DNA from: an uncultured Verrucomicrobiota bacterium
GTDB lineage: Bacteria; Verrucomicrobiota; Verrucomicrobiia; Limisphaerales; UBA8199
Reading direction: 5' to 3'
Assembly: GCA_964507045.1 (NCBI GenBank)
Contig: CAZDOO010000001.1
Span: forward strand, 1-64,000
DNA length: 64,000 bases
Below the pieces are notes generated by a model. The model was not told where the DNA came from and did not search any database. It saw only the letters and a program-made list of their open reading frames with translations. This document shows, one piece after another, positions 27,563 through 49,635 of this stretch. Positions within the stretch are counted from its first letter, which is position 1. Each line of letters begins with the position of its first letter. The position numbers were made by a program, and so were the translations under genes.

Positions 27563-27568
27563 GATTCT

Positions 27569-32310: not shown

Positions 32311-32621
32311 AAGATTATTCACGTGTCGGCCACATGGTCGGCGCGGCGGGGCATCTGTCAATCCTCTTCCCGCGGCAGCTCGGAGCCGGTGACATGGAAC
32401 GAAGATCCTGGCCGAACCTTGCCGTCCGGCCGGGCCTGAGTTACGGCGCTGACAATCTCCACCCCAAGTGTACGGAATGCCCTGTAACAAGGCTCTTAAA
32501 TGGGCCCGAGTCCCCAATCCGTTAACCATCCGCAGCCAGTTTGTGAAGCAGGAGACGCGGCATTGGGGCGCATTTCGGCACTGCCACCCCATCCCACACG
32601 GGAAATCCCTGTATTCCTCTC

Positions 32622-32758
32622 GGATTGGCCGGTCCGGGCGGCCAGGAATGCGGGCCATGCTCAAGCCGGGGTAGTACCGCTCTGTACCGGCTCACCTCAC
32701 CGCATACTCACCTTAGATAACATTGTTATCTAAGGTGAGGATACGGTGAGGGTGGGTT
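32622..32758. repeat. repeat element C: 80 bp flank plus a cctcacc-repeat hairpin; a copy of the element at 49251-49400 (inverted)
   Basis: ggattggccggtccgggcggccaggaatgcgggccatgctcaagcc...ggctcacctcaccgcatactcaccttagataaca ttg ttatctaaggtgaggatacggtgagggtgg. Confidence 0.75.
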
Positions 32759-33029
32759 GGAGATACGCGGTTCGGAAGGCGCGGGACCGATTTCATCCGT
32801 CCCTGTGGTTTATTGGCCTTTTCGGCCTGGAAGTATATGAGACGCCATATACTGCGCGAGCCAGGTCTCATTAACACCCTGCTTTAGCGGGGTGTTAATG
32901 ACACGTATCAGCGGTGCCGAAAGAATCTGTCCTGCGCCCTGCACGCGGGCAGGGGGCCACGCGGGAACCTTGCCTCTCTGAATTCTGGCCGAGGTTTGGA
33001 TGTGCGCGGACGCCGGCTCTGCCCGGGCC

Positions 33030-35312
33030 TCAGGCCCATCCGAACAGCCGGCCCGCGAAATGGGTGAGGAAGGCCAGCCCCCAGGCTAGCACGCCCATAT
33101 AAAGCCACTGAAAGAAGGGCCATTTCCAGCAATTGGTCTCACGTCGCACAATGGCGACCGTGCTGACGCATTGCAGCGCGAACACGTAGAAAACCATCAG
33201 TGTGATCGCTGTCAGCGGCGTATAAACGGGGGTGCCGTCGGGATTCTTCTGGGACTGCAGGGTCTGGGCCAGACTGGTCATGCCGGAGGGAGTGGCATCC
33301 GCGCGGCCCACGTTATAGACGGTGGACATGGTGCTGACAAATACTTCGCGGGCGGCAAAGGAGGTGATAATGCCGATGCCCATTTTCCAATCGAAACCCA
33401 GCGGCGCGATGACCGGTTCAATCAGCCGTCCCAGGCGGCCGGCAAAGCTCTGCCGGAGCTTCTCTCCCGCCAACTGGTTGTCGAGCGCATCGCGTTGAGC
33501 CTGCAAGGACGCCGCCGGTTCGGGGTAGGTGGCCTGGGCGTGCGGGCTGCCGGGGACGGCAGGGGCTGGCGCAGTGCGGGGATAGCTGGCGAGGAACCAA
33601 AGCAGAATGTTGATGCCAAGAATGACCGTGCCGGCCCGGCGCAGAAACAGCTTTGAACGGTCCCACATGTGGCGGGCGACAACGCGCAGGAGCGGCCGCT
33701 TGTAGGGGGGCAACTCCATGATGAGCATGGGCGGCTCGCTCTTGAGCAGCGTCTGCTTGAAAATCCAGGCCATGATCAGCGCGGAGATAATGCCCAGCAA
33801 ATACATGGCCAGCATGGTCAAGCCGGGCAGCTTCAGGACGCCAAGCACGGGGAGATTGGGTATGCAGGCAGCGATGAGCAGCGTGTAAACGGGCAAACGG
33901 GCCGAGCAACTCATCAGCGGGGCGACCAGGATGGTTACCAGCCGGTCCTTGGGGCTTTCGATGGTGCGCGTGGCCATGATGCCGGGGATGGCACAGGCAA
34001 AGGAACTGAGCATCGGGATGAAGCTCTTGCCGTGCAGACCGACTTTGCTCATCAGCCGGTCCATGAGGAACGCCGCGCGCGCCATGTAACCGGTATCTTC
34101 CAGGAAGCCGATGAACAAGAAGAGCAGCAGAATCTGCGGCAGGAACACGACCACCGCGCCCACCCCGGCAACGACCCCGTCCACCAGCAGGCTGTTCAAG
34201 TCACCGGCCGGAATCAGGCGGCCGATGGCATGGCCGAGCCCATCAACGCCGGTTTGCAGCACATCCATCGGGAGCCGGGCGAAGGTGAAAATGCTCTGGA
34301 ACATCAGCATCATGACCGCCAGGAAGATGATCGTGCCCCAGGCCTTATGGGTCAGCACGCGGTCGAGCCGATCGCTGAACGTCTCGCCGGCCGGCGCCAG
34401 CTCGGTGGTGACGGCGTGCTGGATGGCGGCAACGCGCAGGTAGCGGCGCTCGATGGTGACGCCGCGCCAGTCCACCCCGGCGGCTTCGAGGCGGCGGCGC
34501 GCGGCGGCCACGGCTTCCTGGATCGGGGCGGGGTAATGCTGCAGGCTGGAAGCCAAAGCCTTTTCATTGCTGAGAATGAGCATGGCCTCCGCCGCTGCCT
34601 GCGAGCGGTGCTCACGAAAAGCCGCCGCCAGCAAGCCCCCAATTGCGTCTGCCTCCGTCTCCAGCGCGGGCGGCAGCTCGCAGAACCGGCGGGGCTGGGG
34701 CCGGGGCGTGCCCGCGAGTGACGCCAGGATGGCCTGGCGCAGTTCGGCCATCCCCTGGCCGATGCTGGCGACCAGCGGCAGGACGGGCACGCCCAGTTCG
34801 CCGGCAAGTTTCGCGGCATCAACCTGGTGCCCGTTCTCCGCCGCCACATCAACCATGTTCAGCGCCAGGAGCGTGGGATAGCCCAGTTCGATCACCTGGG
34901 TGGCGTAGTAAAGGTTGCGCTGCAGGTTGGAGGCATCCACTACCACGATGACCACTGCGGGGGCGGGCAGCTCCGGCAGGCGGTGGAGCAGGACGTCGCG
35001 CGAGATTTGCTCGTCGAGCGACTGCGGGCTGAGGCTGTAAGTGCCGGGCAGGTCCAGCACCCGCGGGTGCGAGCCGGCCGGCGCGCCCAGCAGACGGCCT
35101 TCCTTGCGCTCCACCGTTACGCCGGCGTAGTTGCCCACTTTGGCGCGCAGCCCGGTCAGGGCGTTAAACACTGTCGTCTTGCCCGAGTTCGGATTGCCGG
35201 TCAGGACGATATAAGGAGCCGAATTGCCGCCGGACAATCCAGCGGGTCCGGGCGCGGCACCGGAGCCGGCCCGGTCCGGGGCGTGGCCGGCGGTTCCGTC
35301 AGGCTTGCTCAT
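33030..35312 (-). CDS. feoB: ferrous iron transporter FeoB
   Basis: GNPNSGKTTVFNALTG (G1) and DLPGTYSL (G3), followed by a large polytopic membrane domain. Confidence 0.9.
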   Translation of the reverse strand: MSKPDGTAGHAPDRAGSGAAPGPAGLSGGNSAPYIVLTGNPNSGKTTVFNALTGLRAKVGNYAGVTVERKEGRLLGAPAGSHPRVLDLPGTYSLSPQSLDEQISRDVLLHRLPELPAPAVVIVVVDASNLQRNLYYATQVIELGYPTLLALNMVDVAAENGHQVDAAKLAGELGVPVLPLVASIGQGMAELRQAILASLAGTPRPQPRRFCELPPALETEADAIGGLLAAAFREHRSQAAAEAMLILSNEKALASSLQHYPAPIQEAVAAARRRLEAAGVDWRGVTIERRYLRVAAIQHAVTTELAPAGETFSDRLDRVLTHKAWGTIIFLAVMMLMFQSIFTFARLPMDVLQTGVDGLGHAIGRLIPAGDLNSLLVDGVVAGVGAVVVFLPQILLLFLFIGFLEDTGYMARAAFLMDRLMSKVGLHGKSFIPMLSSFACAIPGIMATRTIESPKDRLVTILVAPLMSCSARLPVYTLLIAACIPNLPVLGVLKLPGLTMLAMYLLGIISALIMAWIFKQTLLKSEPPMLIMELPPYKRPLLRVVARHMWDRSKLFLRRAGTVILGINILLWFLASYPRTAPAPAVPGSPHAQATYPEPAASLQAQRDALDNQLAGEKLRQSFAGRLGRLIEPVIAPLGFDWKMGIGIITSFAAREVFVSTMSTVYNVGRADATPSGMTSLAQTLQSQKNPDGTPVYTPLTAITLMVFYVFALQCVSTVAIVRRETNCWKWPFFQWLYMGVLAWGLAFLTHFAGRLFGWA

Positions 35313-35571
35313 CCGGCCGGACAAGAATCTGCGCCGCCTCGTGCTTGCGCAGCGTGAGATGGTAGCCGCGCACCTTGATCTCGACCGGGTCGCCGAGCGG
35401 CGCAAAGCGCACTAGTTCGACCGGTGTGCCCACCAGCAAGCCCATTTCCATCAGCCGCGCACGGCTTTCCGGGGACACCTGGATCTCGACCACCGTGACC
35501 TTGCTGCCCAGGGCGACTGAAGTTAGCGGTATCACTGCGGGCAAGCTAAGGTAATTGAGACTCAGTTGCAA
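35299..35571 (-). CDS. feoA: FeoA family protein
   Basis: Small SH3-like FeoA domain (LTSVALGSKVTVVEI...LGDPVEIKVRG) immediately upstream of, and overlapping, feoB. Confidence 0.75.
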   Translation of the reverse strand: MQLSLNYLSLPAVIPLTSVALGSKVTVVEIQVSPESRARLMEMGLLVGTPVELVRFAPLGDPVEIKVRGYHLTLRKHEAAQILVRPDEQA

Positions 35572-35846
35572 GAGGCAATCGCTCGCTGCCGGCCATTGGG
35601 GCTGGGCCTGCGCCTCGCCGGGTATCTAAGGCCGCGGGGACCTCTCGCTTCTTGCACCCCCGCTGCGCTTGCGCCAAAATCGCGCCGTCTCCCGGAAAAC
35701 CAGGCCGGCCGGTCGCCTCCGCAAGCAAGAAAAGAAGCCGTTCAAGGGAATCCGCACCGATCTGCGGCCGCCGGACATGCCGGGGATCCCGGCTTTTGTG
35801 CTTCTCAAAGAGGCGCCGGCTCAGGCATTTTCCCCGGCGAACAATT

Positions 35847-36608
35847 ATGTATCGGGACAAAAAGGTCGTGGTGGTGATGCCGGCTTACAACGCGGCGAAG
35901 ACGCTGCGTCAGACGTATGCCGAAGTGCGTGAGCAAGGATTGGTGGACACGATCATTCTGGTGGATGACGGCAGCCGCGACGACACGGTAGCGGTCGCGC
36001 GCGCGCTGGACGGCGTGCAAGTCCACGTTCACGAGGTGAATAAAGGCTACGGCGGGAACCAAAAGACCTGCTACCGCCTGGCCCTGGATGCCGGGGCTGA
36101 TATTGTCATCATGCTCCACCCGGATTACCAATACACGCCCAAGCTGATTCCGGCGATGGTCTCGATCATCGGCAACGGCCTGCATCCCTGTGTGCTGGGA
36201 AGCCGCATCCTGGGCGGCTACGCCTTGCGCGGGGGCATGCCGGTTTGGAAGTACGTCTCGAACCGTTTGCTGACGCTGGCAGAGAATATCCTGCTGCGGG
36301 CCAAGCTGTCGGAATACCACACTGGCTACCGCGCGTTCTCGCGCGCGATCCTGGAGCGGCTGGACCTGGCGCACAACTCAGACGACTTCGTCTTCGACAA
36401 CCAGATGCTGGCGCAAATCCTGTGGCACGGCTTCACCATTGCCGAGGTGAGCTGCCCGACCAAGTACTTTCCCGAAGCGTCCTCGATCAACCTCCGGCGC
36501 AGCATCAAGTATGGCTGTGGCTGCCTGGGGACGGGGCTGAGATATCGGCTGGCGAAGATGGGATGGTTGCGGTGCAAGTTGTTTCCCGCAGCGCCCGGCC
36601 AAGCCTAG
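35847..36608 (+). CDS. GT2 family glycosyltransferase (dolichyl-phosphate mannosyltransferase-like)
   Basis: VVVMPAYNAAKTL and VDDGSRD are the DxD-type GT-A motifs. Confidence 0.75.
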   Translation: MYRDKKVVVVMPAYNAAKTLRQTYAEVREQGLVDTIILVDDGSRDDTVAVARALDGVQVHVHEVNKGYGGNQKTCYRLALDAGADIVIMLHPDYQYTPKLIPAMVSIIGNGLHPCVLGSRILGGYALRGGMPVWKYVSNRLLTLAENILLRAKLSEYHTGYRAFSRAILERLDLAHNSDDFVFDNQMLAQILWHGFTIAEVSCPTKYFPEASSINLRRSIKYGCGCLGTGLRYRLAKMGWLRCKLFPAAPGQA

Positions 36609-36665
36609 CCGCCAGCCACGAGAGACTGGATTCCGCGCCCCGCAAAAGGTGGTTCCGCCGCGGGG

Positions 36666-36929
36666 TTACTTCGCCTTGGCCAGGCGCAGGGCCAGGCGTG
36701 ACTTCTTGCGGTTAGCCGTGGCGCGGTGGACCACCCCGCCCTTGGCGGCTTTGTCAAAAGCGGAGCTGAGGGCTTTCAATCCCTTGGCGGCCTCGTCCTT
36801 CTTGCCGGCGGCGAGGAGTTCGAGGTAAGCGGCTTCGAGGGTGTGGAGGCGCGACTTGACGCTGCGGTTGCGCAGGTTCTTGCGAGCGCTATTGCGCGCG
36901 CGGCGTTCGGCTGACTTCGTATTCGGCAT
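36666..36929 (-). CDS. rpsT: 30S ribosomal protein S20
   Basis: MPNTKSAERRARNSARKNLRNRSVKSRL is a canonical S20 N-terminus. Confidence 0.9.
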   Translation of the reverse strand: MPNTKSAERRARNSARKNLRNRSVKSRLHTLEAAYLELLAAGKKDEAAKGLKALSSAFDKAAKGGVVHRATANRKKSRLALRLAKAK

Positions 36930-37087
36930 AAATCAAGGTCCAATCAGTTGTTCAGAGCCAGCTACAGTAACTAAACCGCGCCCTTTGTCAACGGCGCGCT
37001 TGCACTGGCTAAAAGCTTCCCGCCTGCGCAAATTGCTACAGGCCGGCCCGGCCTCGTGAATCTTCCTGCGCGCAGAATCCCCAATGA

Positions 37088-37600
<513 letters not shown>

Positions 37601-37635
37601 CCCGGAATAGCCCCAACAACAACTATTCAAGTAAA

Positions 37636-39180
37636 ATGAAGGCAATACTCCCAGTTACCCTCACCCTGATGTTCCTGCTCGCGGTCCGGCCGCTGGCGGC
37701 AGCCGCCGCCGACGCCGTGGCGCCGGGCGCGCCCGCGGCGCCGCAGCTCAAGGCCCCGGGCGTGGAAGAGCGTCTCGCGGACCTGGAGGCCTATGTGAAC
37801 AACGGTGCTCGCGGCAACGCGGCCAACGCCTCTCTCGACACCAAGGTGGGCGGCCCCGGCCCCGGCCATAACGGCTTCCAGATGATTTGTGCGGCGCTCG
37901 TGCTGTTTATGACGCTGCCAGGACTGGCGCTCTTCTACGGCGGCCTGGTGCGGCGGAAGAATGTCCTGTCCGTCCTGGCTCAATGCCTGGGCATTGCCGG
38001 CCTGGTGACAATTCTCTGGTGGCTGTGCGGCTACAGCCTGGCGTTCTCCAAAGGCGGCCTTATCCCGGGCGTGGTCGGCAGTCTCGATTGGAAGTTCCTC
38101 TCCGGGGTGGGCTCAGCCCCCAATTCGGACTACGCGGCCTGGGTGTCTCACAATATCTATTCGATGTATCAGCTCATGTTCGCGATTATCACTCCCGCCC
38201 TGATCGTGGGTGCGATTGCCGAGCGCATGAAGTATTCCGCGATCCTGTTATTCGTGGGGCTGTGGATGCTCATCGTCTATTTCCCGCTCGCCCACATGGT
38301 CTGGGGCGCGGACGGCCTGATGAACGGCGTCTGGAACTCCGCGGCCAAGGTCCGCGCCATTGACTTCGCCGGTGGCACGGTGGTGCACATGTCCTCAGGC
38401 TGGTCGGCCCTGATTCTCTGCCTCATCCTCGGCAAGCGGCTCGGGTTTGGCCGGGAACCGATGCCGCCGCATAACATGGTGCTCTGCATGGTCGGCACCG
38501 GCATGCTGTGGGTCGGCTGGTACGGGTTTAACGCCGGCAGCGCCGTGGCCGCTGACGGCATCGCCGCCAACGCGTTCACGACCACCACGCTGGCCACCGC
38601 GGTGGCCTCCTTCACTTGGGCCATGGCCGAGTACGTCTTCCGGGGCAAGCCGAGCATCCTGGGCTTCTGCTCCGGCGCGGTCGCGGGGTTGGTCGTGATC
38701 ACACCGGCCTGCGGCTTTGTGACGAGCACCGGCGCGGTGATTATCGGCCTAGTGGCGGGCCTGGTGCCGTACCTGGCGTGCTGGAAGCTCAAGTCGGCCG
38801 CGGGCTATGACGATGCGCTGGACACCTTCGGCGTGCATGCCGTGGGCGGGACCATCGGCGCGTTCCTGACCGGCATCCTCGCCACCGCCAAAGCGAATCC
38901 GAACCTGGCCAGCAACCTGGCGGATGTCGGCAACAAGCTCGAGGCCGCCAATCCGGCCACCCAGAACGGTCTGGCCAAGCTGGTCGCCGACGGCGGTCTG
39001 TGGGTCGAGCAGCTTAAGGCCATCAGCATTACCCTCTGCCTGGCTATTGTCGGCACGGTGGTAATCGCCTACATTGTCAAGGCGATCCTCGGGCTGCGGG
39101 TCGCGCCGGAGACTGAAGTGTCGGGTCTGGACCTGGCTGAACACGGGGAAGAGGGCTATCATGCGGCCGGACAGCTATGA
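37636..39180 (+). CDS. amt: ammonium transporter (Amt family)
   Basis: Signal peptide followed by 11 TM helices. DFAGGTVVHMSSG is the Amt signature. Confidence 0.9.
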   Translation: MKAILPVTLTLMFLLAVRPLAAAAADAVAPGAPAAPQLKAPGVEERLADLEAYVNNGARGNAANASLDTKVGGPGPGHNGFQMICAALVLFMTLPGLALFYGGLVRRKNVLSVLAQCLGIAGLVTILWWLCGYSLAFSKGGLIPGVVGSLDWKFLSGVGSAPNSDYAAWVSHNIYSMYQLMFAIITPALIVGAIAERMKYSAILLFVGLWMLIVYFPLAHMVWGADGLMNGVWNSAAKVRAIDFAGGTVVHMSSGWSALILCLILGKRLGFGREPMPPHNMVLCMVGTGMLWVGWYGFNAGSAVAADGIAANAFTTTTLATAVASFTWAMAEYVFRGKPSILGFCSGAVAGLVVITPACGFVTSTGAVIIGLVAGLVPYLACWKLKSAAGYDDALDTFGVHAVGGTIGAFLTGILATAKANPNLASNLADVGNKLEAANPATQNGLAKLVADGGLWVEQLKAISITLCLAIVGTVVIAYIVKAILGLRVAPETEVSGLDLAEHGEEGYHAAGQL

Positions 39181-39269
39181 TTTCGCAGGCGCCCGGCCGG
39201 CTCATCGCGATGAGCGAGGCCCGGTCGGGCGGCTCGATGGCAAACAAGATAACAACCAAACATTGATAA

Positions 39270-40682
39270 ATGAGCACACCCAAGAGCGTAATTGAATTAG
39301 CAAACAAGAGCGGGGCCAAGATGGTGGACATCAAGTTCGTGGACACCTTCGGCACCTGGCAACATTTCAGCTGTCCCATTCGGGAGCTGACGGAAGAGGT
39401 CTTCACCGAGGGGTTGGGCTTTGACGGCTCCAGCATCCGCGGCTGGAAGAGCATCGAAGCCTCGGACATGCTGGCGATGCCGGATCCGGCGACGGCCTTC
39501 ATGGACCCGTTCTGCGCCGAGCCGACCCTGAGCCTCACCTGCACCGTCGCGGAGACGGGCACCAAGGAGGGCTATACGCGCGATCCGCGGGGCATAGCCC
39601 AGCGCGCGGAGAAGTACCTGGTCAGCACCGGCGTGGCGGACTCGGCCTTCATGGGGCCGGAAGCCGAGTTCTTCATCTTCGACAACGTGCAGTTCGACAG
39701 CAAGAGCAACGGCACGTTTTACAGCGTGGATTCCGAAGAGGCGATCTGGAACTGCGCCAAGGATGAAATGCCCAATACCGGCTACAAAATCCGCCACAAG
39801 GAAGGCTACTTCCCGGTAGCGCCGGCGGATGCGCAGCAGGATATCCGGACCGAAATGTGCCTGACGATGGAGGAGCTGGGCCTGAGCATTGAACGGCAGC
39901 ACCACGAAGTGGCCACGGCGGGGCAAGCCGAGATAGACTACCGCTTCGACACGCTGGTGCGGGCGGCCGATGCCATGATGGTGTTCAAGTATGTCGTCAA
40001 GAACGTGGCGCGGAAGCACGGCAAGACGGCGTGTTTCATGCCCAAACCGCTCTTTGGGGACAACGGCAGCGGCATGCACACCCACCAGTCGCTGTGGAAG
40101 AAGGGCAAGCCGCTGTTCGCCGGCAACGAGTATGCGGGCCTGTCGAAGATGGCTCTCTACTACGCGGGCGGCCTGCTCAAGCACGCCCGGGCCCTGTGCG
40201 CGATCTGCAACCCGACCACCAACAGCTATAAGCGGCTGGTGCCAGGCTACGAAGCGCCGGTCAACCTGGCCTACAGCTCGCGGAACCGCTCGGCGGCAAT
40301 CCGCATTCCCACCTATAGCGAGAATCCCAAGGCCAAACGCCTGGAGTATCGGCCCCCGGATCCGGCGGCCAATCCCTACCTGGCCTTCTCAGCGCTGCTA
40401 CTGGCGGGGCTGGATGGCATCCTCAACAAGATTGACCCCGGCGAACCGCTGGACAAGAACATCTACGAGCTGCCGCCGGAGGAGCTGAAGAAGGTTCCGA
40501 ACGTGGCCGGCAGCCTGGGCGAGGCGCTCGATTGCCTCGAGAAGGACTACGAGTTCCTCCTCAAGGGCGACGTCTTCACCATGGACTTTCTCGACATGTG
40601 GGTTGCGACCAAGCGCAAGGAGCACGACGCGTTGCGCTTGCGGCCGCATCCCTATGAGTTCTTCCTCTACTACGACGTGTAG
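39270..40682 (+). CDS. glnA: glutamine synthetase type I
   Basis: [15 protein letters not shown] at the N-terminus, the GSGMHTHQS region, and [13 protein letters not shown] near the adenylylation site. Confidence 0.9.
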
Positions 40683-40784
40683 CCAGAGGACGCTTGGGGT
40701 GCAGTAACGAGCGGCGCGGACGCAGGTCCGCGCCGCTTCCCCTGTACGGGGCGAGCGGGCCCGAAAAGCGCTTGCCGCGCGCCG

Positions 40785-41012
40785 TTGGCTGTGCAAAATG
40801 CATCACGTATGAACGCACCGCAGAAGCAAGCTTCGCAAAACCGTGCGGCGCCCGAGAGCCAAACCAAACCGCCACCCGAGCAGCAGCTTCCGGCCACGCT
40901 TGGCCAGAAGATATTCATCGCCGGACTCTGCCTCTACGTGCTCTCGCTGGTCTGGCTCACGCTGAGCCATCACTGGTACGGCGTGCTGCCGAAATGGCTC
41001 GATCCTCATTGA
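40785..41012 (+). CDS. possible small membrane protein
   Basis: 75 aa ORF with one hydrophobic helix (IFIAGLCLYVLSLVWLTL), in otherwise empty intergenic space. Weak. Confidence 0.25.
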   Translation: MAVQNASRMNAPQKQASQNRAAPESQTKPPPEQQLPATLGQKIFIAGLCLYVLSLVWLTLSHHWYGVLPKWLDPH

Positions 41013-41087
41013 GGCGGAAATCGTCCTTTCGGTTCTGCCCGGGGCCGCTGGGTTCTCCCGCGGATTCCATGGATACATAACCGGCCG

Positions 41088-42149: not shown

Positions 42150-42514
42150 CGAAACACCCCCGCGCCGTCGGTTCGCAGCGCCAGTGCTGTCGTTTAAGGG
42201 CTCATCCGAGAAGTTTGTTCTTGGGATGGCCTTTTCGCGCTACTTCAACCACTTGGGAGGGGGAATTCCCTGGCAGCCCATTCAAATAGCAGCAGCCGAC
42301 GCAAGGGCGTGTTGCCCAAACCCCTTGATGGGCGAGCGTTCTCGCGAGCCCTAATTTCCGCAGAAATCCAAAGGTGTTTGGGCTCGCGGGGACGCGCGCC
42401 CTCCCAGTAAACCGTGCAGGCGGGTTGGGTCTCACACGCCCTTACGCCTGCTGCGTCTTTGACGGGTTCCTGGCGCAACGGTGTCCATAGGCGGAACTTG
42501 CCCAGCCCATTGCC

Positions 42515-42635
42515 GTATCCCCCAGTAATCCCCCAGTAATCCCCCTCTATACCCCCTGTATTCCCCCTCTATTCTAATAGAAGGGGTATACAGGGGGAAT
42601 ACAGGGGGTATAGAGGGGGAGTAGAGGGGGATTCG
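42515..42635. repeat. intergenic long hairpin element D built from ccccct-containing 8-9-mers
   Basis: cccccagtaatcccccagtaatccccctctataccccctgtattccccctctattc taat agaaggggtatacagggggaatacagggggtatagagggggagtagaggggg. Confidence 0.7.
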
Positions 42636-43099
42636 GTGGGGATATGGCGCGGCCAAGGCCAGCATGAGCATTCCATCGAAAACAACGAAGAACCGCCGCG
42701 CCCAGGTAATTACTTTGATTCCAGGTAGTTACGCAAACCACGCCGTCACCACACCGTCGCGCTAGACACAGATGTGACACCCCGGGGCTTTTTCCGGCCC
42801 AGTTGCCATGCCGGAAAGGCGCTTTGGGGGGAGCAACTCACTTCCGTGGCATGCCTGTTCGGCGAGGAGCAGTTCCGGCGGAGCGCCGCTCGTTTCCGTG
42901 GCCGCTGCCCACGCCTCAAGGTGTCAATTTGCGACTCTGAACGCCGGATGTCCTTTGCCTTAGCAGCTTGCGCGAAGCGCATAGCCGCGTGGGGATGGTC
43001 CGAGTCAGGGGAATTGGTGGCAGGGGAATGGAACGTTCTCCCCATCCCCGTGGGGATGGTCCGCTGTAGTGCGTGTCATCCGGCGGCGGCGTTCGTCGG

Positions 43100-43404
<305 letters not shown>

Positions 43405-43422
43405 TCGAAGGATGAACCCGGC

Positions 43423-43968
43423 ATGAAGACCGACGCTCTTGCACTCCAGGCTGAACGGCGAATCCTCTCGGTCCGCAAGCAGAGAGTCATGCTGAGCGAT
43501 GATCTCGCCGCGCTCTACGGTGTCGAGACCAAGGCTCTGAACCGTGCAGTTAAGAGGAATGTCGAGCGTTTCCCAGACGATTTCATGTTCCAACTGACCG
43601 GCGAAGAGTGGGGTGACTTGAGGTGCCAGATTGGCACCTCAAGTTGGGGTGGCAGCCGGGTCCCGCCTTACGCCTTCACCGAGCAGGGGGTGGCTATGCT
43701 ATCCAGTGTGCTGCGCGGTTCCCGTGCTGTGCAGGTCAACATCGCCATCATGCGCGCCTTTGTGCGCCTGCGTGAAATGCTCCTCACCAACGCCGACCTG
43801 GCTCGCAAACTGGCCGAGTTGGAGCGCAAGTACGACACCCAGTTCAAGGCGGTTTTCGACGCTATCCGCCAGCTCATGGCGCCGCCGCCCGCGCCGCCTA
43901 AACCCGAAATCGGCTTCCACGTCAAGGAAGAGGCCGTTCCCTACCGGATCGGCAGGCGGCGGCGTTAG
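43423..43968 (+). CDS. ORF6N domain protein with ORF6C-like C-terminal domain
   Basis: [39 protein letters not shown] and [15 protein letters not shown] are ORF6N signatures. A C-terminal coiled region resembles ORF6C. Confidence 0.75.
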
Positions 43969-44105
43969 TCATCGCTGAGGCTTGCTTACTGCTCCCGAGG
44001 CCAACCGGCAAAGTCTAAAGCCCAAGGCGGAACGTGGACCCGCTCACGGTCCTTGAGCGTTGAAGCAGTTGCCAAGGGCGCTTCTCTCCGTCACAGTAGG
44101 GGCGG

Positions 44106-45662
44106 ATGAGCAAGCGCTTTTACATCACGACCGCCATTGACTACGTCAACGGCCACCCGCATCTCGGCCATGCCTATGAGAAGGTGGTCGCCGACGTCAT
44201 CGCCCGCGCACGCCGCAGCCTGGGACAGGAGACGTTCTTTCTGACGGGCCTGGACGAGCACGGGCAGAAAGTCCAGCAGGCGGCACTGGCGGCAGGCAAG
44301 ACCCCGCAGGCCTACTGCGATGAACTGGCGGCGGTGTGGCGGGCGTTCGCCGGCAAGTTGGACTTGACCAACGACGACTTCGTCCGCACCACCCAGGCGC
44401 GGCATAAACAGGTCGTGCAGGCGATCCTCACCAAGCTTCATGCCGAGGGGCACTTTTACAAGGAAGCCTATTCCGGTTTCTATTCGACTCGCCAGGAAAC
44501 CTTCCTGACCCATAAAGACCGTTTGCCGGATGGCACCTTTGACCCGTCCTGGGGGGAGGTCGTGGAACTCAAAGAGGAGAATTACTATTTCAGGCTCAAG
44601 GACCACCAGCAGTGGCTGATTGATCACATCGAGCAGAATCCGTCCTTCATCAGCCCCGCGCCGCGCCGGAACGAAGTGCTCGGCTTCCTTAAGAACAACG
44701 TGCTGGAAGACCTGTGCATCAGCCGGCCCGCCTCGCGCCTCAATTGGGGCATCCCGCTGCCGTTCGATCCCGACTACGTCACCTACGTCTGGTTCGACGC
44801 GCTCTCCAACTACATCACCGTACCCGCCGCCCAGGGCGATCCCGGTGTCCCGGAACCTTTCCGCCCTCAACCCTCAACCCTCAACGCTCAACTCCCCCTG
44901 TGGCCTGCCGACATCCACGTCATCGGCAAGGACATCGTGAAGTTCCACAGCGTCTATTGGCCGATCATGCTTAAGGCGATGGGCGCGCCGTTGCCCAAAC
45001 AGGTGCTCGTCCACGGCTGGTGGCAGAAGGACGGCCAGCGGATGAGCAAGAGCACCGGCAATGTCGTGGACCCGGTCGCGGTCATAGACGAGTGGGGCGT
45101 GGACGCGTTCCGCTTCTACGTGCTGCGGGAATTGGACATCGGCCCCGACGGCAACTGGACGGAGGCTGGGTTCAGGGCGCGCTACTCGGCAGAACTGGCT
45201 AACGGCCTGGGCAACCTGGTGAACCGCTCGCTCTCGATGCTCAAACGCTACCGCAACGGCGTCGTGCCCAAGGCCTCAAACGAACTGGCGCCAGACGCGG
45301 AGAAGGCAATCGCCGAAACCCGCAGCCTGCTGGAGCAGAACCAACTCCAGGGCGCGCTCCAGGCCATTTGGTCGCTGGTTACGCGGGCCAATCAGTATGT
45401 GGACCACACCGCGCCGTTCAAACTGGCCAAGGACCCTTCCCAGGCCGCGCGCCTGGATGAGGTCCTGTATAACCTGACAGAGGTCTGCCGGATTCTCGCG
45501 GTGCTGCTCTGGCCGTTCCTGCCAGGCACGGCGGGGAAGATTTACGCGCAACTCGGCCTGCCCGGCGAGCCGGACAAAGCCTCGGCGGCGCGCTGGGGCG
45601 GACTGCCGGCAGGGCATGCCATCGGGGCTCCCGCCCCGCTGTTCCCGCGAAAGGAGACCTGA
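44106..45662 (+). CDS. metG: methionyl-tRNA synthetase
   Basis: HLGH is the HIGH motif and RMSKSTGN is the KMSKS motif. It contains the in-frame heptamer tract PFRPQPSTLNAQLP. Confidence 0.9.
   Translation: MSKRFYITTAIDYVNGHPHLGHAYEKVVADVIARARRSLGQETFFLTGLDEHGQKVQQAALAAGKTPQAYCDELAAVWRAFAGKLDLTNDDFVRTTQARHKQVVQAILTKLHAEGHFYKEAYSGFYSTRQETFLTHKDRLPDGTFDPSWGEVVELKEENYYFRLKDHQQWLIDHIEQNPSFISPAPRRNEVLGFLKNNVLEDLCISRPASRLNWGIPLPFDPDYVTYVWFDALSNYITVPAAQGDPGVPEPFRPQPSTLNAQLPLWPADIHVIGKDIVKFHSVYWPIMLKAMGAPLPKQVLVHGWWQKDGQRMSKSTGNVVDPVAVIDEWGVDAFRFYVLRELDIGPDGNWTEAGFRARYSAELANGLGNLVNRSLSMLKRYRNGVVPKASNELAPDAEKAIAETRSLLEQNQLQGALQAIWSLVTRANQYVDHTAPFKLAKDPSQAARLDEVLYNLTEVCRILAVLLWPFLPGTAGKIYAQLGLPGEPDKASAARWGGLPAGHAIGAPAPLFPRKET
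44864..44898 (+). repeat. (CCCTCAA)3 plus degenerate units inside metG
   Basis: ccctcaaccctcaaccctcaacgctcaactccccc, encoding PQPSTLNAQLP. Confidence 0.9.
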
Positions 45663-45699
45663 GCTGCCATGAAACGCATTTGCTGCAGCCGATGGTGGA

Positions 45700-45792
45700 G
45701 AACATTCAACAACCAACATCCAACATTCAACATCCAATGGGGGCCATGGGGACTGTTCTTGGATGTTGGGCGTTTGATGTTGGATGTTGGAA
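45700..45792. repeat. intergenic long hairpin element E built from caacatc/gatgttg units
   Basis: aacattcaacaaccaacatccaacattcaacatccaa, then a 21 nt loop, then ttggatgttgggcgtttgatgttggatgttgg. Confidence 0.7.
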
Positions 45793-45818
45793 GTTGCCTA
45801 ACTTCATGGGGAAGGAGG

Positions 45819-47630
45819 ATGTTCGACCGTCTGCGGCTGCCGCTATTGCGAACCACGCTCGGCTGCACGTTTGGGGCTGTGGTGCTTTCCACGTCCCTCT
45901 ATTCCCAGACCCTTGACCTGCCTCCCCGTGCCACCAACGCCCTGAGCGGGACGGAGTTTGCCCGGCGCATCGCGCCGCTGGGCTTGGCCGAGCGCGAGAA
46001 GGAGATCTTTACCCAAATCACTTCCGGCAACGTCCCCAACTTCCTGCGCAGACTGTCTCCCGTGCCGGCCAGGAGTGTCGTTGAGGGCAAGATTGACAGC
46101 GGCACATACTTTGTGACGCCGGATTACCTGGCCATCGGCTCCGACGACGACTATTTCCTGACGCCGATTTCGCCCAATACCGCCCAGCGGATCGCCGACG
46201 CGCTGCACTGCACGCTGCCCACGCCCAAAATGGTGAACCAAATCTTCTTTGCCTCCGAGGTTAAGCTGGTTCCCGCGCCCATACCGCCCAGCGCGGCTAT
46301 GACTACCGTCCCGGTCTTCAGTAACCACAACGACCTTGTCCGCACCCAGCGGGCGGAGCAGTTGAAAGCGCATCCCTTGGGCGCGCTGGTCGCCGGGCAC
46401 CAGAAAGACGTTGTAATCACGGCGAAGCTGGCCTCGAACCCCGGCAAGGTGGCCATCTATGGCTGGCACCAGACCAACGGCCAGCCCATCCAGCCCCTTT
46501 ACCTGAAACACTCGGCATCCTGGGTTGACTACAGCCAATGCACCCGCCTCGTGCAGCAGAAGATGACGGTGAACGGCGCGACCAAAACGGTCGCCGAAGT
46601 CCTGGCCGACCCGGCTCTGGCGGGCTTGCTGAGCGACGAAGGACCCGTGCCTGACCCGCGCTATCCCACCAACGCCTTGCTGTCACTCCAAACCCTGACC
46701 AATACCGCCAGCTTGAACCAGCTCGTCGCAAACCCCACCTTCAACGAGCGCCTCACCGCCTTCACCTTCAACCCGGACGTCAAAGTCCGCGTGAACCTGC
46801 CCGGGGAGTCGTCCTTCGCCGCCGGCAAGAAGGTGTTGCTGATCTTCTACGCGCTGCCCAACGGCAACACCACCGACCAGACTGCCGGCAAAATCATGAA
46901 GCCCGGCGACGACTGGCACTTCAACATCCAGCACATTGCCGCGCAAACGCGCTTCCTGCGCGACCTGCTCAAAGACCGCGCGGTGGTGGTAGTTTACCTC
47001 GAAGCCGCCGGGAAGAGCTGGCCGGCCTGGCGCAAAGCGCACGGGGACAAGCTGATCCCCGAGATCGTGGCCACCGTGAAGAAGCTCTTTCCCGCGCGCG
47101 AAGTGGACACCGTTCTAAGCGGACACAGCGGCGGCGGCAGCTTCATCTTCGGCTACCTCAATGCCGTGGACAAGATTCCCGACGACGTGACGCGCATCGC
47201 CTTCCTGGACAGCAATTATGCTTACGACCGCGCCCTGGGCCATAAGGATAAGCTCGTGAAATGGCTGGAGGCTCCGGGTCAACACAGCCTTTGCGTGCTC
47301 GCCTACAACGATGCCGTGGCGCTGCTCAATGGCACGAACTTCGTCAGCGCCGCGGGCGGCACCTGGGGCAAGAGCCACGCCATGCAGCGCGACCTGGCCG
47401 CAGACCTCAAGTTCACCACGCAGACCAACGCTGACTTCGAGAGATTCACCGCGCTCGATGGGCGCGTGCAATTCATCCTGAAGGAGAATCCGGAGAAGAA
47501 GATCTTTCACACCGTGCAAGTGGAGCGGAACGGCTTCATCCACAGCATGGTTTCGGGCACGACCAACGAGGGGAAGGGCTACGAGTACTTCGGCCCGCGC
47601 GCCTACTCGAACCTGATCCAGGCCGAGTAG
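45819..47630 (+). CDS. large secreted hypothetical protein
   Basis: Signal peptide MFDRLRLPLLRTTLGCTFGAVVLSTSLYS. About 600 aa with no recognised catalytic motif. Confidence 0.55.
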   Translation: MFDRLRLPLLRTTLGCTFGAVVLSTSLYSQTLDLPPRATNALSGTEFARRIAPLGLAEREKEIFTQITSGNVPNFLRRLSPVPARSVVEGKIDSGTYFVTPDYLAIGSDDDYFLTPISPNTAQRIADALHCTLPTPKMVNQIFFASEVKLVPAPIPPSAAMTTVPVFSNHNDLVRTQRAEQLKAHPLGALVAGHQKDVVITAKLASNPGKVAIYGWHQTNGQPIQPLYLKHSASWVDYSQCTRLVQQKMTVNGATKTVAEVLADPALAGLLSDEGPVPDPRYPTNALLSLQTLTNTASLNQLVANPTFNERLTAFTFNPDVKVRVNLPGESSFAAGKKVLLIFYALPNGNTTDQTAGKIMKPGDDWHFNIQHIAAQTRFLRDLLKDRAVVVVYLEAAGKSWPAWRKAHGDKLIPEIVATVKKLFPAREVDTVLSGHSGGGSFIFGYLNAVDKIPDDVTRIAFLDSNYAYDRALGHKDKLVKWLEAPGQHSLCVLAYNDAVALLNGTNFVSAAGGTWGKSHAMQRDLAADLKFTTQTNADFERFTALDGRVQFILKENPEKKIFHTVQVERNGFIHSMVSGTTNEGKGYEYFGPRAYSNLIQAE

Positions 47631-47691
47631 CCGCCGCCTCTCAGGAGGGCGAGCGTCCCCGCAAGCCCTGATCCCTATCCCGGCCAGCCGC

Positions 47692-49104
47692 TCAACGCAA
47701 CCAGCCTTTGGCTACAAAGAAGTAGAGGCAGGTCACCATCCCCATGCCAACGGCGAAGGTCACCTGCGGCAAGGTGAAAGGCCAGGGATTATCCGACAGG
47801 TTCATGCCGAAAAGCCCCCCCACCACCGCCGGGATCAACCCCAGCACACTGACAACGGCCAGCACGCGCATCACGCGGTTCATTTCGAACGAAACGACGT
47901 TCAGATGCAGTTCGATGAGCGAGAGAACGCCTTCCCGCACATTGGTGACCGTCTCGTAGAGGTAATCGGCGGTGTCCGAGAGCTCGCCCAGGAAGGGGAG
48001 CTCGCCCCCGTCGCTGCCGGGAAGTTTGACGCGCGACTCGGCCAGCGCCTTGAGGACCCCGCGCAGCCGCCACAAATCCGACTGGGCGGCGGAAAGCTCC
48101 TTCTTCAAGCGGAACGTGCGCTCGAAGAACTGCTGCCGGCTCTCGCGCACCGGCAGCTCCTCCAGTTTGCCGAGTTCTGCTTCAAACAGGCCGACCAGGG
48201 CCTCGTCGGCTTCCAGCACTGTCTTCAAGAACTGACACGCCGTGCGGACGGGAAAGGGCAGGGCCGCAAACCGGCCTGTCGCCCGGCTGGCAATCTTCTC
48301 CATCAGGTGAACCGGCTGGCGGGCGAAGGTGACGACACTTTTGTCGCTTGCCATCAGCAGCAAGCCGTTCCGTTGAATCTGCTTATCAAACGATCCTTCC
48401 GCCAGCCAAACAAAGAGGGAAAGATAGCGATCCGTGGCTTCAATGTGCGGATAGCTGGTGCCAAGCAAATGGGCGGCGATAAACTCCCGGGGGATGCCCG
48501 ACGCGCTCGCGACCTCGGGCAGGTTGTGCTGGCCTACATTGGCGATGCTGTACCATTCCGTTCCCGGGTGCTTGGCCCACTGGACAAACTCCTCCCACGT
48601 GGCCGCGCGTGGTTTGGCCTCGCCGCTGGCGGGAAGCATGCGGACCAGCATCGGGTCCGGGGCGCGCTGCGCCACCGCCGCGCTTTCCTCCCGGGTTATG
48701 ACCCCGCTGGCGCGCGCCCCGAGCGCCAGCACGCGAGCCAGGCGCACCAGTCGCAACACCGGCGAAGAACGCAGGACCTCCGATGCCCCAGGCAACAGGG
48801 TCGCCAACGGAATCAAAACGGTGGCGGCATCTACCACGCGCCACGGGTTGAGCACGAAGCTCTGCTTTGAACTCGCCCGCGCCAGGCCGACCCCGTACTC
48901 GATAGCGAACAGCGCAATGATGGACCATTGACCCGTCTCCAGCAGCGCCTCGACGTGGGGGGAGGTCTGGAACAGCATCGGGACGAGTGTCAGCGCCGCT
49001 GACACGATGGCCAGAAAGCCGAGAAAGACTTCGCCGAGAACAAAGCGCACGACGGGGTTGAGGCCCCGGAGCGCAGCCGTATTAAGCAGGTTGCTGTTAT
49101 CCAT
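47692..49104 (-). CDS. CorA-like divalent-cation transporter fused to an N-terminal ion-transport (voltage-sensor-like) membrane domain
   Basis: The C-terminus LFGMNLSDNPW plus two TM helices is CorA-like (a GMN motif). The N-terminus has several TM helices including an Arg-rich segment, LRLVRLARVLALGAR. Confidence 0.6.
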   Translation of the reverse strand: MDNSNLLNTAALRGLNPVVRFVLGEVFLGFLAIVSAALTLVPMLFQTSPHVEALLETGQWSIIALFAIEYGVGLARASSKQSFVLNPWRVVDAATVLIPLATLLPGASEVLRSSPVLRLVRLARVLALGARASGVITREESAAVAQRAPDPMLVRMLPASGEAKPRAATWEEFVQWAKHPGTEWYSIANVGQHNLPEVASASGIPREFIAAHLLGTSYPHIEATDRYLSLFVWLAEGSFDKQIQRNGLLLMASDKSVVTFARQPVHLMEKIASRATGRFAALPFPVRTACQFLKTVLEADEALVGLFEAELGKLEELPVRESRQQFFERTFRLKKELSAAQSDLWRLRGVLKALAESRVKLPGSDGGELPFLGELSDTADYLYETVTNVREGVLSLIELHLNVVSFEMNRVMRVLAVVSVLGLIPAVVGGLFGMNLSDNPWPFTLPQVTFAVGMGMVTCLYFFVAKGWLR

Positions 49105-49250
49105 CACATCAGCCGTGGACGATACAGGCTGACAAACCAGCGGTGCAAAGCATAATTGTCTCGCGTGTCGGCTCCGCCCATCTCGACACCATCCCCCCAG
49201 GAGCTCGGCCGGACTCCCCCTCCCCCTGACCCTGGCACCGGCGCATCTCC

Positions 49251-49400
49251 GTAGCCTCACCGTCACCTCACCGTAGTACCTCTGATAGCCTATCAGAGGT
49301 ACTACGGTGAGGATACGGTGAGGTGAGCCAGAAGAGAGGGATATTACCCAGGCCTGAGCATGACCCGCATTCCGGGCCGCCCGGGCCGGCCAATCCAAAG
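49251..49400. repeat. repeat element F: cctcacc-repeat hairpin plus an 80 bp flank; an inverted copy of element C
   Basis: cgtagcctcaccgtcacctcaccgtagtacctctgatag cc tatcagaggtactacggtgaggatacggtgaggtgagcc, followed by sequence about 85% identical to the reverse complement of 32622-32700. Confidence 0.75.
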
Positions 49401-49635
49401 GGAATTCACGGATTCCACGTCTGGGATGGGGGGGAGCGCCCCAAGGCGCGCCCGGGTCGGCTAAACCCCGAATTCGGCTCTTGCGCTGGTCAAAGACTTC
49501 GGAGTATTCTGAACCAGCATTTTGGCGTTGGCGCTGGTGTCGGCAGTGTGCGGTGAGGCACCAGAGTTCACGGCGGAAGCACAGCGTGAAATGGCTGACA
49601 GTATCTGCGGCGTAAAGGCCTGCAGATGGAGGACT

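What the first reader, a model, noticed from the sequence alone, without database searches (positions are those of the whole stretch)
32622..49400. Elements C and F are two inverted copies of one mobile-like unit (80 bp flank plus hairpin)
32622-32700 and the reverse complement of 49321-49400 are about 85% identical (ggattggccgg.ccgggcggcc.ggaatgcggg.catgctca.gcc.gggta). In both copies the shared flank is followed by a cctcaccg-type hairpin, so the unit is about 150 bp. Both copies sit 150 to 300 bp upstream of the start of a minus-strand gene: GH127 at 32310 and the CorA-like gene at 49104. A duplicated non-coding unit in opposite orientations implies transposition or recombination rather than local slippage. 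It might carry a promoter or regulatory site.
Basis: seen in the sequence. Interest (0 to 1): 0.6.

Follow-up and report, generated by a model that had tools for sequence, protein, structure and literature searches.

The report
Two-copy intergenic repeat ending in palindrome
Two stretches of about 210 bases of non-coding DNA, 16.6 kb apart and facing each other in a Verrucomicrobiota genome fragment, are old copies of one unit: a 130-base head joined to a long palindrome. It looks like an ordinary lineage-specific dispersed repeat, not a promoter, riboswitch or structured RNA gene.

Summary
Window 32560-32772 (+) and 49238-49456 (-) share about 210 nt. BLASTN aligns 152 nt at 81% identity (E 1.6e-35), and a two-sequence profile matches both copies at E about 1e-68. 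Each unit is a head of about 130 nt followed by a long near-perfect palindrome and a tail of about 12 nt.

The palindrome has a third member in the window, at 5572-5656, which lacks the head. It belongs to a wider set of seven long hairpins in the window whose arms are tandem 7-, 8- or 11-nt units.

- **Copies elsewhere:** none found in the window, in 64 fetched loci, in species-representative genomes, in JGI metagenomes, in viral, plasmid or phage collections, or among predicted proteins. The source genome itself could not be searched.
- **Orthologous sites:** the unit is absent upstream of the CorA-like gene and downstream of feoB in relatives.
- **The head:** it has no Rfam match, no excess folding stability, no conserved promoter and no coding signature.
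- **Element ends:** there are no terminal inverted repeats and no significant target-site duplication.

My best reading (confidence 0.45) is a REP/BIME-like mosaic repeat copied by recombination or hairpin-directed transposition. The palindrome probably acts as a terminator or insulator hairpin. A pair of sRNA genes is the main rival. Interest is low to moderate.

The parts
32560..32687 (+). Copy C, head: about 130 nt of non-coding sequence. Its core, 32622-32666, is 93% identical to F.
   Evidence: The head alone folds no better than shuffles (z -0.55).
32688..32757 (+). Copy C, long hairpin or palindrome. Arms 32695-32722 / 32724-32751 with a 1-nt spacer; the 5' arm reads CCTCACCGCAT ACTCACCTTAG ATAACA.
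   Evidence: I15, 93% complementary; -43.8 / -44.2 kcal/mol on the two strands.
32758..32772 (+). Copy C, short shared tail after the hairpin (GGAGATACGCGG).
49329..49456 (-). Copy F, head (reverse complement of the + strand).
   Evidence: Head alone z -0.45.
49250..49328 (-). Copy F, long hairpin or palindrome. Arms 49255-49288 / 49290-49323 with a 1-nt spacer; two 11-nt units CCTCACCGTNN followed by a unique apex.
   Evidence: I9, 94%; -60.9 kcal/mol on both strands; period 11.
49238..49249 (-). Copy F, short shared tail after the hairpin (GGAGATGCGCC).
5572..5656 (.). Third member of the same palindrome family, without the head. It is 76-78% identical to the F hairpin. It lies between the 3' end of a DegT-family gene and tRNA-Pro.
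   Evidence: D8, I2, I7; profile matches the hairpin only; seven compensated pairs across the three hairpins.

Best explanation
C and F are two diverged copies (about 81% identical) of a lineage-specific, non-coding dispersed repeat built as a mosaic. One module is a long palindrome of the CCTCACCG family, which has three members in this window. The other is about 130 nt of adjoining head sequence plus a 12-nt tail.

The unit was copied to a second intergenic site in inverted orientation by a DNA-level event. This could be ectopic recombination or gene conversion anchored in the palindrome, which pairs equally well in either orientation. It could also be hairpin-directed single-strand transposition of the kind done by Y1/HUH enzymes, which leaves no terminal inverted repeats and no target duplication.

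The active module is the palindrome. Its arms evolve in concert and, when transcribed, it forms a very stable hairpin that ends or insulates transcripts. At C it sits 279 nt after the feoB stop codon. At F it sits between the diverging CorA-like and tRNA-Phe promoters. The head is most likely passenger DNA with no function of its own.

Shown: the duplication, its extent, the palindrome family, its absence at orthologous sites, and the lack of RNA, promoter or coding signals in the head. Inferred: the copying mechanism and the terminator or insulator role.
For: Duplication and extent.

Modularity:
- The hairpin at 5572-5656 shares the palindrome but not the head.
- The apex of F resembles that of the 5572 hairpin more than that of C, although F shares the head with C.
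- Among the three hairpins, 32 predicted pairs are kept and 7 show changes on both sides, so the arms co-evolve.

Class context:
- The window holds seven long hairpins whose arms are tandem 7-, 8- or 11-nt units.
- Six of them face the 3' end of a gene, from a 15-nt overlap with it to 363 nt beyond the stop.
- In 4 of the 5 hairpins whose two strands fold differently, the strand of the upstream gene folds better.
- A similar hairpin occurs in a relative, L064 3115-3209.

Lineage-specific placement:
- The unit is absent upstream of CorA-like orthologues in L054-L056, L063 and L064.
- It is absent downstream of the feoB orthologue in L058-L061, although synteny from feoB through amt is kept.

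The head shows no sign of its own function:
- No Rfam match.
- Folding z-scores of -0.55, -0.45, +0.27 and +0.03.
- Alignment-fold z of -1.1 and -1.9.
- No promoter-like site inside the unit.
- Substitutions in every open frame are mostly non-synonymous (and direct reading).
- The spread of substitutions along the unit is compatible with uniform neutral decay (my estimate).

A Y1/HUH transposase-like gene lies 4 kb from C. REP-type palindromes, BIME mosaics and Y1 transposases are described in PVC bacteria (PMC3733652, PMC6006769).
Against: - Only two copies of the head are known, which is thin for a repeat family.
- The rest of the source genome could not be searched, so copy number is unknown.
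- No mobilising enzyme is linked to these palindromes. The nearby Y1 gene is flanked by its own 26-nt inverted repeats, not by these hairpins. Its subclass is reported not to be associated with REP hairpins (PMC6006769).
- The hairpins are longer than REPs and have no clear one-sided GTAG tag.
- No U-tract follows the hairpins, so the terminator role is an inference.
- The placement of both copies also fits an sRNA gene: diverging from a neighbouring gene and ending in the hairpin.
Confidence: 0.45

Rival explanations
1. Two paralogous small RNA genes. The head is the body of a trans-acting sRNA of about 200 nt, and the hairpin is its terminator. Each gene is transcribed away from its neighbour: C away from GH127, F away from tRNA-Phe.
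For: - Both copies have the same architecture. The 5' end of the head lies 255 nt from the GH127 start and 184 nt from the tRNA-Phe start, which leaves room for diverging promoters.
- In both copies the hairpin lies at the 3' end.
- F lies upstream of the inferred CorA-like proximal promoter, so it is not part of that gene's 5' UTR.
- A 45-nt core is 93% identical.
- Base-pairing sRNAs need not be highly structured.
Against: - There is no conserved promoter. Similarity stops at the 5' end of the head, and an 11-nt indel lies in the only place a shared -35/-10 pair could sit.
- No U-tract follows the hairpin.
- No homologue was found in any relative or collection.
- The core conservation is not significantly above the rest once multiple windows are allowed for (my estimate, P about 0.1).
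Confidence: 0.25
2. A shared DNA control region, such as an operator array or upstream activating site, bound by one regulator. The repeated GGAAT/ATTCC pentamers in the head, spaced at about 10, 20 and 43 nt, would be the binding sites.
For: The inverted pentamer pairs AATCC/GGATT and ATTCC/GGAAT sit at identical positions in both copies. Both copies lie in regions upstream of gene starts.
Against: - The copies face opposite ways relative to GH127 and the CorA-like gene.
- The neighbouring genes (a glycoside hydrolase, a cation channel, a tRNA, feoB) share no obvious regulon.
- CorA-like orthologues keep their proximal 60 nt without the unit.
- Pentamer pairs of this kind are expected by chance in GC-rich DNA (my estimate).
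Confidence: 0.1
3. The two inverted copies are the substrates or scars of an inversion of the 16.6-kb segment between them (feoAB, amt, glnA, metG and the CorA-like gene).
For: The copies are inverted and bracket the segment exactly. Both lie at points where gene order differs from relatives. About 200 nt of 81% identity could support rare homologous recombination.
Against: - GC skew shows no flip at 32.7 or 49.3 kb.
- The segment holds only housekeeping genes and no recombinase.
- Gene order at this divergence (83-85% protein identity) changes often anyway.
- An inversion would not explain where the two copies came from.
Confidence: 0.08
4. A cis-acting leader (riboswitch or leader peptide) that senses a divalent cation and controls read-through of the hairpin. 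At F read-through would run into the CorA-like gene. At C it would run antisense into feoB.
For: - Both copies adjoin metal-ion transporter genes.
- F has the sense orientation upstream of the CorA-like gene.
- A short ORF is kept in both copies (MRAMLKPG* and MRVMLRPG*), with different stop codons (direct reading).
Against: - No match to any riboswitch family, including M-box, yybP-ykoY and NiCo.
- No folding signal in the head.
- The unit is absent upstream of every CorA-like orthologue examined.
- The CorA-like gene has its own conserved proximal block downstream of the hairpin.
- The short ORF has no usable ribosome-binding site, and its substitutions are as expected for neutral DNA.
Confidence: 0.05

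Closest known systems
REP / BIME elements (repetitive extragenic palindromes and their mosaics, Enterobacteria and Pseudomonas; GTAG-tagged REPs also reported in the verrucomicrobium Opitutus terrae, PMC3733652)
   Same: - An extragenic palindrome forms a sequence family.
- Most members lie at gene 3' ends.
- The palindrome is combined with conserved non-palindromic flanking motifs, as in BIMEs.
- Both orientations occur.
- There are no terminal inverted repeats and no target duplications.
- G-U pairing hints at a role in RNA.
   Different: - The stems are 28-41 bp (up to 61 in other hairpins of the window), against 6-13 bp for REPs.
- The arms are built of tandem 11-nt units.
- There is no one-sided GTAG or CGTC tag.
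- Only three palindromes and two heads were seen.
- No REP-flanked RAYT gene is present.
REPINs (REP doublets forming hairpins, mobilised by RAYT; Bertels and Rainey 2011, cited in PMC3733652)
   Same: A long hairpin of about 60-90 nt is the unit that is copied. It is found in intergenic DNA, and a Y1/HUH enzyme is the proposed mobiliser.
   Different: A REPIN arm is itself a small palindrome (a REP). Here each arm is a direct tandem repeat. REPIN families have tens to hundreds of near-identical copies, and copy number here is unknown.
Bacterial MITEs such as Correia, ERIC/IRU, RUP, Nezha
   Same: The size (about 200 nt), the non-coding and intergenic nature, the dispersed copies in both orientations, and the lineage-specific distribution.
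   Different: MITEs have terminal inverted repeats and target-site duplications. Neither is present here. Only the 3' third of this unit is palindromic.
TIRtron / TIRYT (Y1 transposase gene flanked by inverted repeats with the GGGGWSAS motif; PMC3733652, subclass 2.1 in PMC6006769)
   Same: One such gene with the motif is in the window, at 27523-28648 and 4 kb from C. In some genomes its flanking repeats seed repeat families. The flanking repeat and the F stem share ACCGTAG.
   Different: The C/F head and hairpins do not contain the 26-nt flanking repeat. That transposase subclass is reported to lack associated REP hairpins.
Paralogous Hfq-type sRNA genes (for example OmrA/OmrB, PrrF1/PrrF2)
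   Same: Two copies of about 200 nt, about 80% identical, intergenic, with a conserved core and ending in a stem-loop.
   Different: No conserved promoter, no U-tail, no conservation in related genomes, and a terminator stem far longer than usual.

Membership tests
REP / BIME | Short imperfect palindrome of 20-40 bp (stems mostly 6-13 bp) | tested here: not met
   Hairpins span 57-85 nt with arms of 28-41 nt (I7, I9, I15).
REP / BIME | GTAG or CGTC tetranucleotide tag at one end of the palindrome | tested here: inconclusive
   GTAG/CTAC (F), CTAG (5572 hairpin) and TTAG (C) lie inside the stem on both arms, not at one end (direct reading).
REP / BIME | Extragenic position, typically near gene 3' ends | tested here: met
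   All three family members are intergenic. C and the 5572 hairpin lie 279 and 257 nt after stop codons. F lies between two gene starts.
REP / BIME | High copy number across the genome | not testable with these tools
   Only 64 kb of the source genome is available. The source species was not hit in genome contigs or metagenome contigs.
REP / BIME | A RAYT gene flanked by members of the same palindrome family | tested here: not met
   The Y1 gene at 27569-28606 is flanked by its own 26-nt inverted repeats, not by these hairpins (I23, 69, 70, 72). It scores below the NCBIfam cut-off for REP_Tyr_transpos (52.6 against 80 bits).
MITE | Terminal inverted repeats at the element ends | tested here: not met
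   The 5' end (TTGGGGCGC) and the 3' end (GGAGATRCGC) are not inverted repeats of each other.
MITE | Target-site duplication flanking each copy | tested here: not met
   The best flanking direct repeats are ACCGCGG-type short matches: ACGCGG (C) and GCGCC (F). They occur by chance with P about 0.11 and 0.38.
MITE | Multiple dispersed copies | tested here: inconclusive
   Two copies in 64 kb and none elsewhere in what could be searched.
Structured RNA / riboswitch | Match to a described family, or a conserved fold more stable than chance | tested here: not met
   Rfam gives only below-threshold microRNA-like hits to the bare hairpin. Head z-scores range from -0.55 to +0.27. Alignment-fold z is -1.1 and -1.9.
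Structured RNA / riboswitch | Conserved upstream of orthologous genes | tested here: not met
   Absent upstream of CorA-like orthologues at 85%, 83% and 75% identity.
sRNA gene | Own promoter conserved between paralogues | tested here: not met
   No promoter-like site in or at the head in either copy. An indel lies in the only candidate spacer.
sRNA gene | Intrinsic terminator (GC-rich stem followed by a U-tract) | tested here: inconclusive
   A very stable stem is present, but no T-run follows it. The scan found no terminator at either hairpin.
sRNA gene | A discrete transcript | not testable with these tools
   No expression data are available.
IS200/IS605-derived element (PATE) | Similar subterminal hairpins at both the left and right ends | tested here: not met
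   There is only one large hairpin per unit. The small 5' TGGGG...CCCCA pair is unrelated to it.

The most novel reading that the evidence does not exclude
The long palindromes with arms made of tandem 11-nt units (about one helical turn) may form a distinct, undescribed class of bacterial foldback-like elements in this verrucomicrobial lineage. Their arms would evolve in concert. They could move or convert flanking DNA to new loci in either orientation, perhaps with the help of the Y1/HUH (TIRYT-type) enzyme encoded 4 kb away. C and F would then be a caught example of a palindrome carrying 130 nt of passenger sequence.
Probability: 0.12. Interest if true: 0.6.

Novelty: new variant of a known kind. 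Interest (0 to 1): 0.3.

Why it matters
Taken alone, the C/F pair matters little. It is a two-copy non-coding repeat with no sign of its own regulatory or RNA function. Its main practical effects are on assembly and on possible rearrangement. Logan contigs break at these palindromes, and two inverted 200-nt copies could flip a 16.6-kb housekeeping segment.

The wider pattern is more interesting. Extragenic palindromes built from tandem 7-11-nt units sit near a TIRYT-type Y1 transposase gene, in a phylum where transcription signals and repeat biology are poorly known. If these hairpins prove to be the lineage's usual transcript-end signals, or a new hairpin-mobilised repeat class, that would help annotate Verrucomicrobiota genomes. 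It would also give TIRYT enzymes, whose substrates are unknown, a candidate substrate.

Tried and rejected
- **Known RNA family:** Rfam at gathering threshold on the whole window, and at E up to 10 on both loci, returned only tRNAs and sub-threshold microRNA-like hits to the bare hairpin.
- **Further copies by exact-pattern scans:**
  - GGAATGCGGGNCATGCTCA in JGI metagenomes gave 43 loci. All were chance hits without the adjoining sequence.
  - GGATTGGCCGGNCCGGGCGGCC in 185,579 species-representative genomes gave 8 chance hits in unrelated phyla.
  - CCGGGCGGCCNGGAATGCGGG in viral contigs gave 1 chance hit.
  - These scans need exact matches, so diverged copies would be missed. They also show that the source genome is not in those collections.
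- **blastn against plasmids and phages:** no match.
- **Six-frame peptides of the head against 5.8 billion predicted proteins,** hoping for spurious ORF calls over other copies: nothing at E up to 10.
- **Exact look-ups of my own FeoB and GH127 ORF calls** failed because the start codons were wrong. The correct FeoB (P0121) lies only on a short Logan contig, and its NCBI record was not retrievable.
- **Coding potential:** every frame is open, as expected for GC-rich DNA. The best candidates are the reverse-strand M[AT]RIPGRP... ORF and the 8-codon MRAMLKPG ORF. Both show substitution patterns expected of neutral DNA and lack ribosome-binding sites (direct reading).
- **A head next to the 5572 hairpin:** the profile added only about 4 bits beyond the hairpin, so I rejected it.
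- **Composite transposon or genomic island between C and F:** rejected. The segment carries feoAB, S20, glnB, amt, glnA and metG, and part of that gene order is kept in a relative.
- **GC-skew test for an inversion:** uninformative.
- **Strand asymmetry of G-U pairs in the C and F hairpins:** neutral, so the transcribed strand could not be assigned.

Full report
**The observation.** I read both loci and aligned them.
- The 33-mer GGATTGGCCGGNCCGGGCGGCCNGGAATGCGGG occurs exactly twice in the window, at 32622 (+) and 49364 (-), with none expected from shuffles.
- BLASTN aligns 32565-32716 with 49452-49302: 152 nt, 80.9% identity, E 1.6e-35.
- The repeat finder reports the same pair as a 133-nt inverted repeat of 83%.
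- A profile built from both copies matches each end to end, at 32561-32775 (+) and 49455-49241 (-), with E about 1e-68. Nothing else in the window matches full length.

The finding is therefore real, and the unit is about 210 nt long rather than 150. It has a head of about 130 nt, a long hairpin and a tail of about 12 nt (GGAGATRCGC). The hairpins are near-perfect palindromes with a 1-nt spacer. C has arms 32695-32722 / 32724-32751, and F has arms 49255-49288 / 49290-49323. Their feet are shared (CCTCACCG...CGGTGAGG). Their apices are unrelated in sequence, yet palindromic in both.

**Organism and neighbourhood.** The window is 62% G+C. Homologues of its CorA-like and FeoB proteins carry source names such as Verrucomicrobiae, Verrucomicrobiota and Opitutaceae bacterium. 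The nearest FeoB relative other than the source itself is only 83% identical.

C lies between the 3' end of feoB (33030, minus strand) and the start of a GH127 gene (32310, minus strand). F lies between the start of a gene encoding an ion-channel/CorA fusion protein (49104, minus strand) and tRNA-Phe (49636, plus strand). The 16.6 kb between them carries feoA/feoB, a GT2 gene, S20, P-II, amt, glnA, an esterase, an ORF6N gene, metG and a 603-aa gene. This is housekeeping DNA, not an island.

**The hairpin belongs to a family and a class.** A third hairpin at 5572-5656 is 76-78% identical to the F hairpin but lacks the head. When the three are aligned, 32 base pairs are predicted and 7 of them show changes on both sides that keep the pair.

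The F apex is closer to that of the 5572 hairpin than to that of C, although F shares the head with C. The unit is therefore a mosaic whose modules have separate histories. The C apex can be derived from an F-like apex by removing the same 8 nt from both arms (direct reading). That points to concerted evolution of the arms, by selection for pairing or by template switching within quasi-palindromes. I could not tell these two apart.

More widely, the window has seven long hairpins whose arms are tandem 7-, 8- or 11-nt units:
- 5572-5656
- 17919-18022
- 25384-25526
- 32695-32751
- 42512-42648
- 45707-45796
- 49255-49323

Tandem Repeats Finder reports periods of 11 or 22 for four of these hairpins. 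Six of the seven face a gene's 3' end, from a 15-nt overlap with it to 363 nt beyond the stop; F is the exception. In 4 of the 5 cases where the two strands fold differently, the strand of the upstream gene folds better. This is suggestive but not significant. A hairpin of the same build (TAGGCAACCAC twice, then a unique apex, with 47-nt arms) occurs in a relative at L064 3115-3209. Short-read Logan contigs of this organism end at or beside these hairpins, as expected for palindromes longer than the assembly k-mer.

**Is the head functional RNA, coding, or a promoter?**
- Rfam gives nothing.
- The whole units fold far better than shuffles (z -4.8 and -7.2), but this comes from the hairpin. The heads alone give z of -0.55 and -0.45 on the unit strand and +0.27 and +0.03 on the other strand, and their minimum-energy folds differ between the copies.
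- A consensus fold of the two heads is no better than column-shuffled controls (z -1.1 forward, -1.9 reverse). The few compensated pairs come from a method that selects for them.
- All six frames are largely open, as expected at this G+C content. The two best ORF candidates have substitution patterns expected of neutral DNA and lack ribosome-binding sites.
- The promoter and terminator scan finds no sigma-70-like site within the head or hairpin of either copy and no U-tract after either hairpin.
- Similarity fades at the 5' end of the head, where an 11-nt indel separates the only candidate -35 and -10 hexamers. The duplicated segment therefore carries no conserved promoter in either direction.
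- The 45-nt core is 93% identical. After allowing for the number of windows scanned, this is not significantly above the 81% average (my estimate, P about 0.1). The pattern is compatible with neutral decay.

**Distribution.** No further copy was found by any of these searches:
- BLASTN or nhmmer on the window and on all fetched loci.
- Exact-pattern scans of JGI metagenomes, of one genome per 185,579 species and of viral contigs.
- blastn against plasmids and phages.
- A search of 5.8 billion predicted proteins with six-frame peptides of the head.

The pattern scans need exact matches of 18-21 specified bases. They also show that the source genome is not in those collections, so copy number within the source genome remains unknown.

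At orthologous sites the unit is absent:
- Upstream of the 85%-identical CorA-like gene (L054-L056), only the proximal 60 nt match the window, and the neighbouring genes differ.
- The 83% orthologue has a 122-nt upstream spacer that keeps the same proximal block.
- The 75% orthologue has no match.
- Downstream of the 83%-identical feoB (L058-L061) there is no match, although the gene order from feoB through amt is kept.

The conserved proximal block (TTGCRC, 18 nt, TATSGT) is probably the CorA-like promoter. That would put F upstream of the promoter and outside the gene's 5' UTR; this is an inference.

**Mobility signatures.** There are no terminal inverted repeats. The best flanking direct repeats (ACGCGG at C, GCGCC at F) arise by chance with P about 0.11 and 0.38. 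GC skew shows no flip at the two copies.

A 345-aa Y1/HUH transposase-like gene lies 4 kb from C, at 27569-28606. It has Pfam Y1_Tnp, and its best NCBIfam hit is REP-associated tyrosine transposase, below the cut-off. It is flanked by 26-nt inverted repeats (27523-27548 / 28623-28648) that contain GGGGTCAG. That sequence matches the GGGGWSAS motif described for TIRYT/TIRtron units (PMC3733652; subclass 2.1 in PMC6006769).

Elements moved by Y1 enzymes have neither terminal inverted repeats nor target duplications and are recognised through hairpins. Their absence here therefore does not exclude that route. However, the hairpins do not carry the 26-nt repeat, and that enzyme subclass is reported to lack associated REP hairpins (PMC6006769). 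The link is only a lead.

**Conclusion.** The best-supported reading is a lineage-specific mosaic repeat of the REP/BIME kind: a palindrome family member plus passenger flank. It was copied once to a second intergenic site in inverted orientation, by palindrome-anchored ectopic recombination or by hairpin-directed transposition. The palindrome, not the head, is the module likely to act, as a transcript-ending or insulating hairpin.

A pair of sRNA genes remains a serious rival, because both copies have the layout of a small independent gene. It lacks a conserved promoter, a U-tail and any conservation in relatives. A promoter or operator role, a cation-sensing leader and an inversion scar are less likely, for the reasons given under the rivals.

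The finding fails the defining tests for REP (size, tag), MITE (terminal repeats, target duplication), riboswitch and IS200-derived elements. I therefore file it as a new variant of extragenic palindromic repeats, of low to moderate interest. The unusual tandem-unit palindromes are the part most worth a genome-wide follow-up.

Noticed in passing
window 27523-28648: A TIRtron-like unit. It holds a 345-aa Y1/HUH transposase-like gene (27569-28606, minus strand) flanked by 26-nt inverted repeats containing GGGGTCAG. This matches the GGGGWSAS motif published for TIRYT genes. The repeat occurs only at these two places in the window. A 344-aa Y1_Tnp gene also lies near the CorA-like orthologue in L054/L056.
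   Followed up: partly
window 5572-5656, 17919-18022, 25384-25526, 42512-42648, 45707-45796 (plus C and F); L064 3115-3209: Long, near-perfect palindromes whose arms are tandem repeats of 7, 8 or 11 nt (11/22-nt periods in four of them), each with a different unit sequence. One arm is often pyrimidine-rich and CCUCC-like, the other GGAGG-like. Six of the seven lie just after gene 3' ends. Short-read contigs of this organism break at them.
   Followed up: partly
window 43100-43364 and 43984-44248: A 265-nt direct repeat, 99% identical, brackets an ORF6N-domain (phage antirepressor-like) gene at 43423-43968. The second copy includes the start of metG (44106). This looks like a recent insertion or duplication at the metG 5' end.
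   Followed up: no
window 18533-18565, 21087-21117, 44864-44892; 53685-53721, 54351-54404, 54586-54616; 54435-54463: Identical short tandem arrays recur at several loci: the heptamer CTCAACC 4-5 times at three sites (two of them identical 32-mers 2.5 kb apart), the octamer GCTGAAAN 4-7 times at three or four sites near exosortase and glycosyltransferase genes, and GCGTGGT 4 times. They might be binding arrays or slippage-prone tracts.
   Followed up: no
window 50170-50354 versus 51355-51791: Two direct repeats of 136 nt (89% identical) and 78 nt (78%) lie to the right of tRNA-Phe, in a region with poorly defined ORFs next to a Wzy_C gene. They are probably paralogous gene fragments.
   Followed up: no
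window 49105-49165; L054 5940-6000; L063 about 935-994: About 60 nt directly upstream of the CorA-like ATG is conserved in orthologues of 83-85% protein identity (TTGCRC, 18 nt, TATSGT). This is probably the gene's promoter and short 5' UTR.
   Followed up: partly
window 25527-27562: A lower-GC stretch (about 57-59% against 62%) between hairpin 25384-25526 and the Y1 gene holds a 468-aa ORF (26156-27562, minus strand) that I did not annotate. It may be foreign DNA next to the TIRtron.
   Followed up: no
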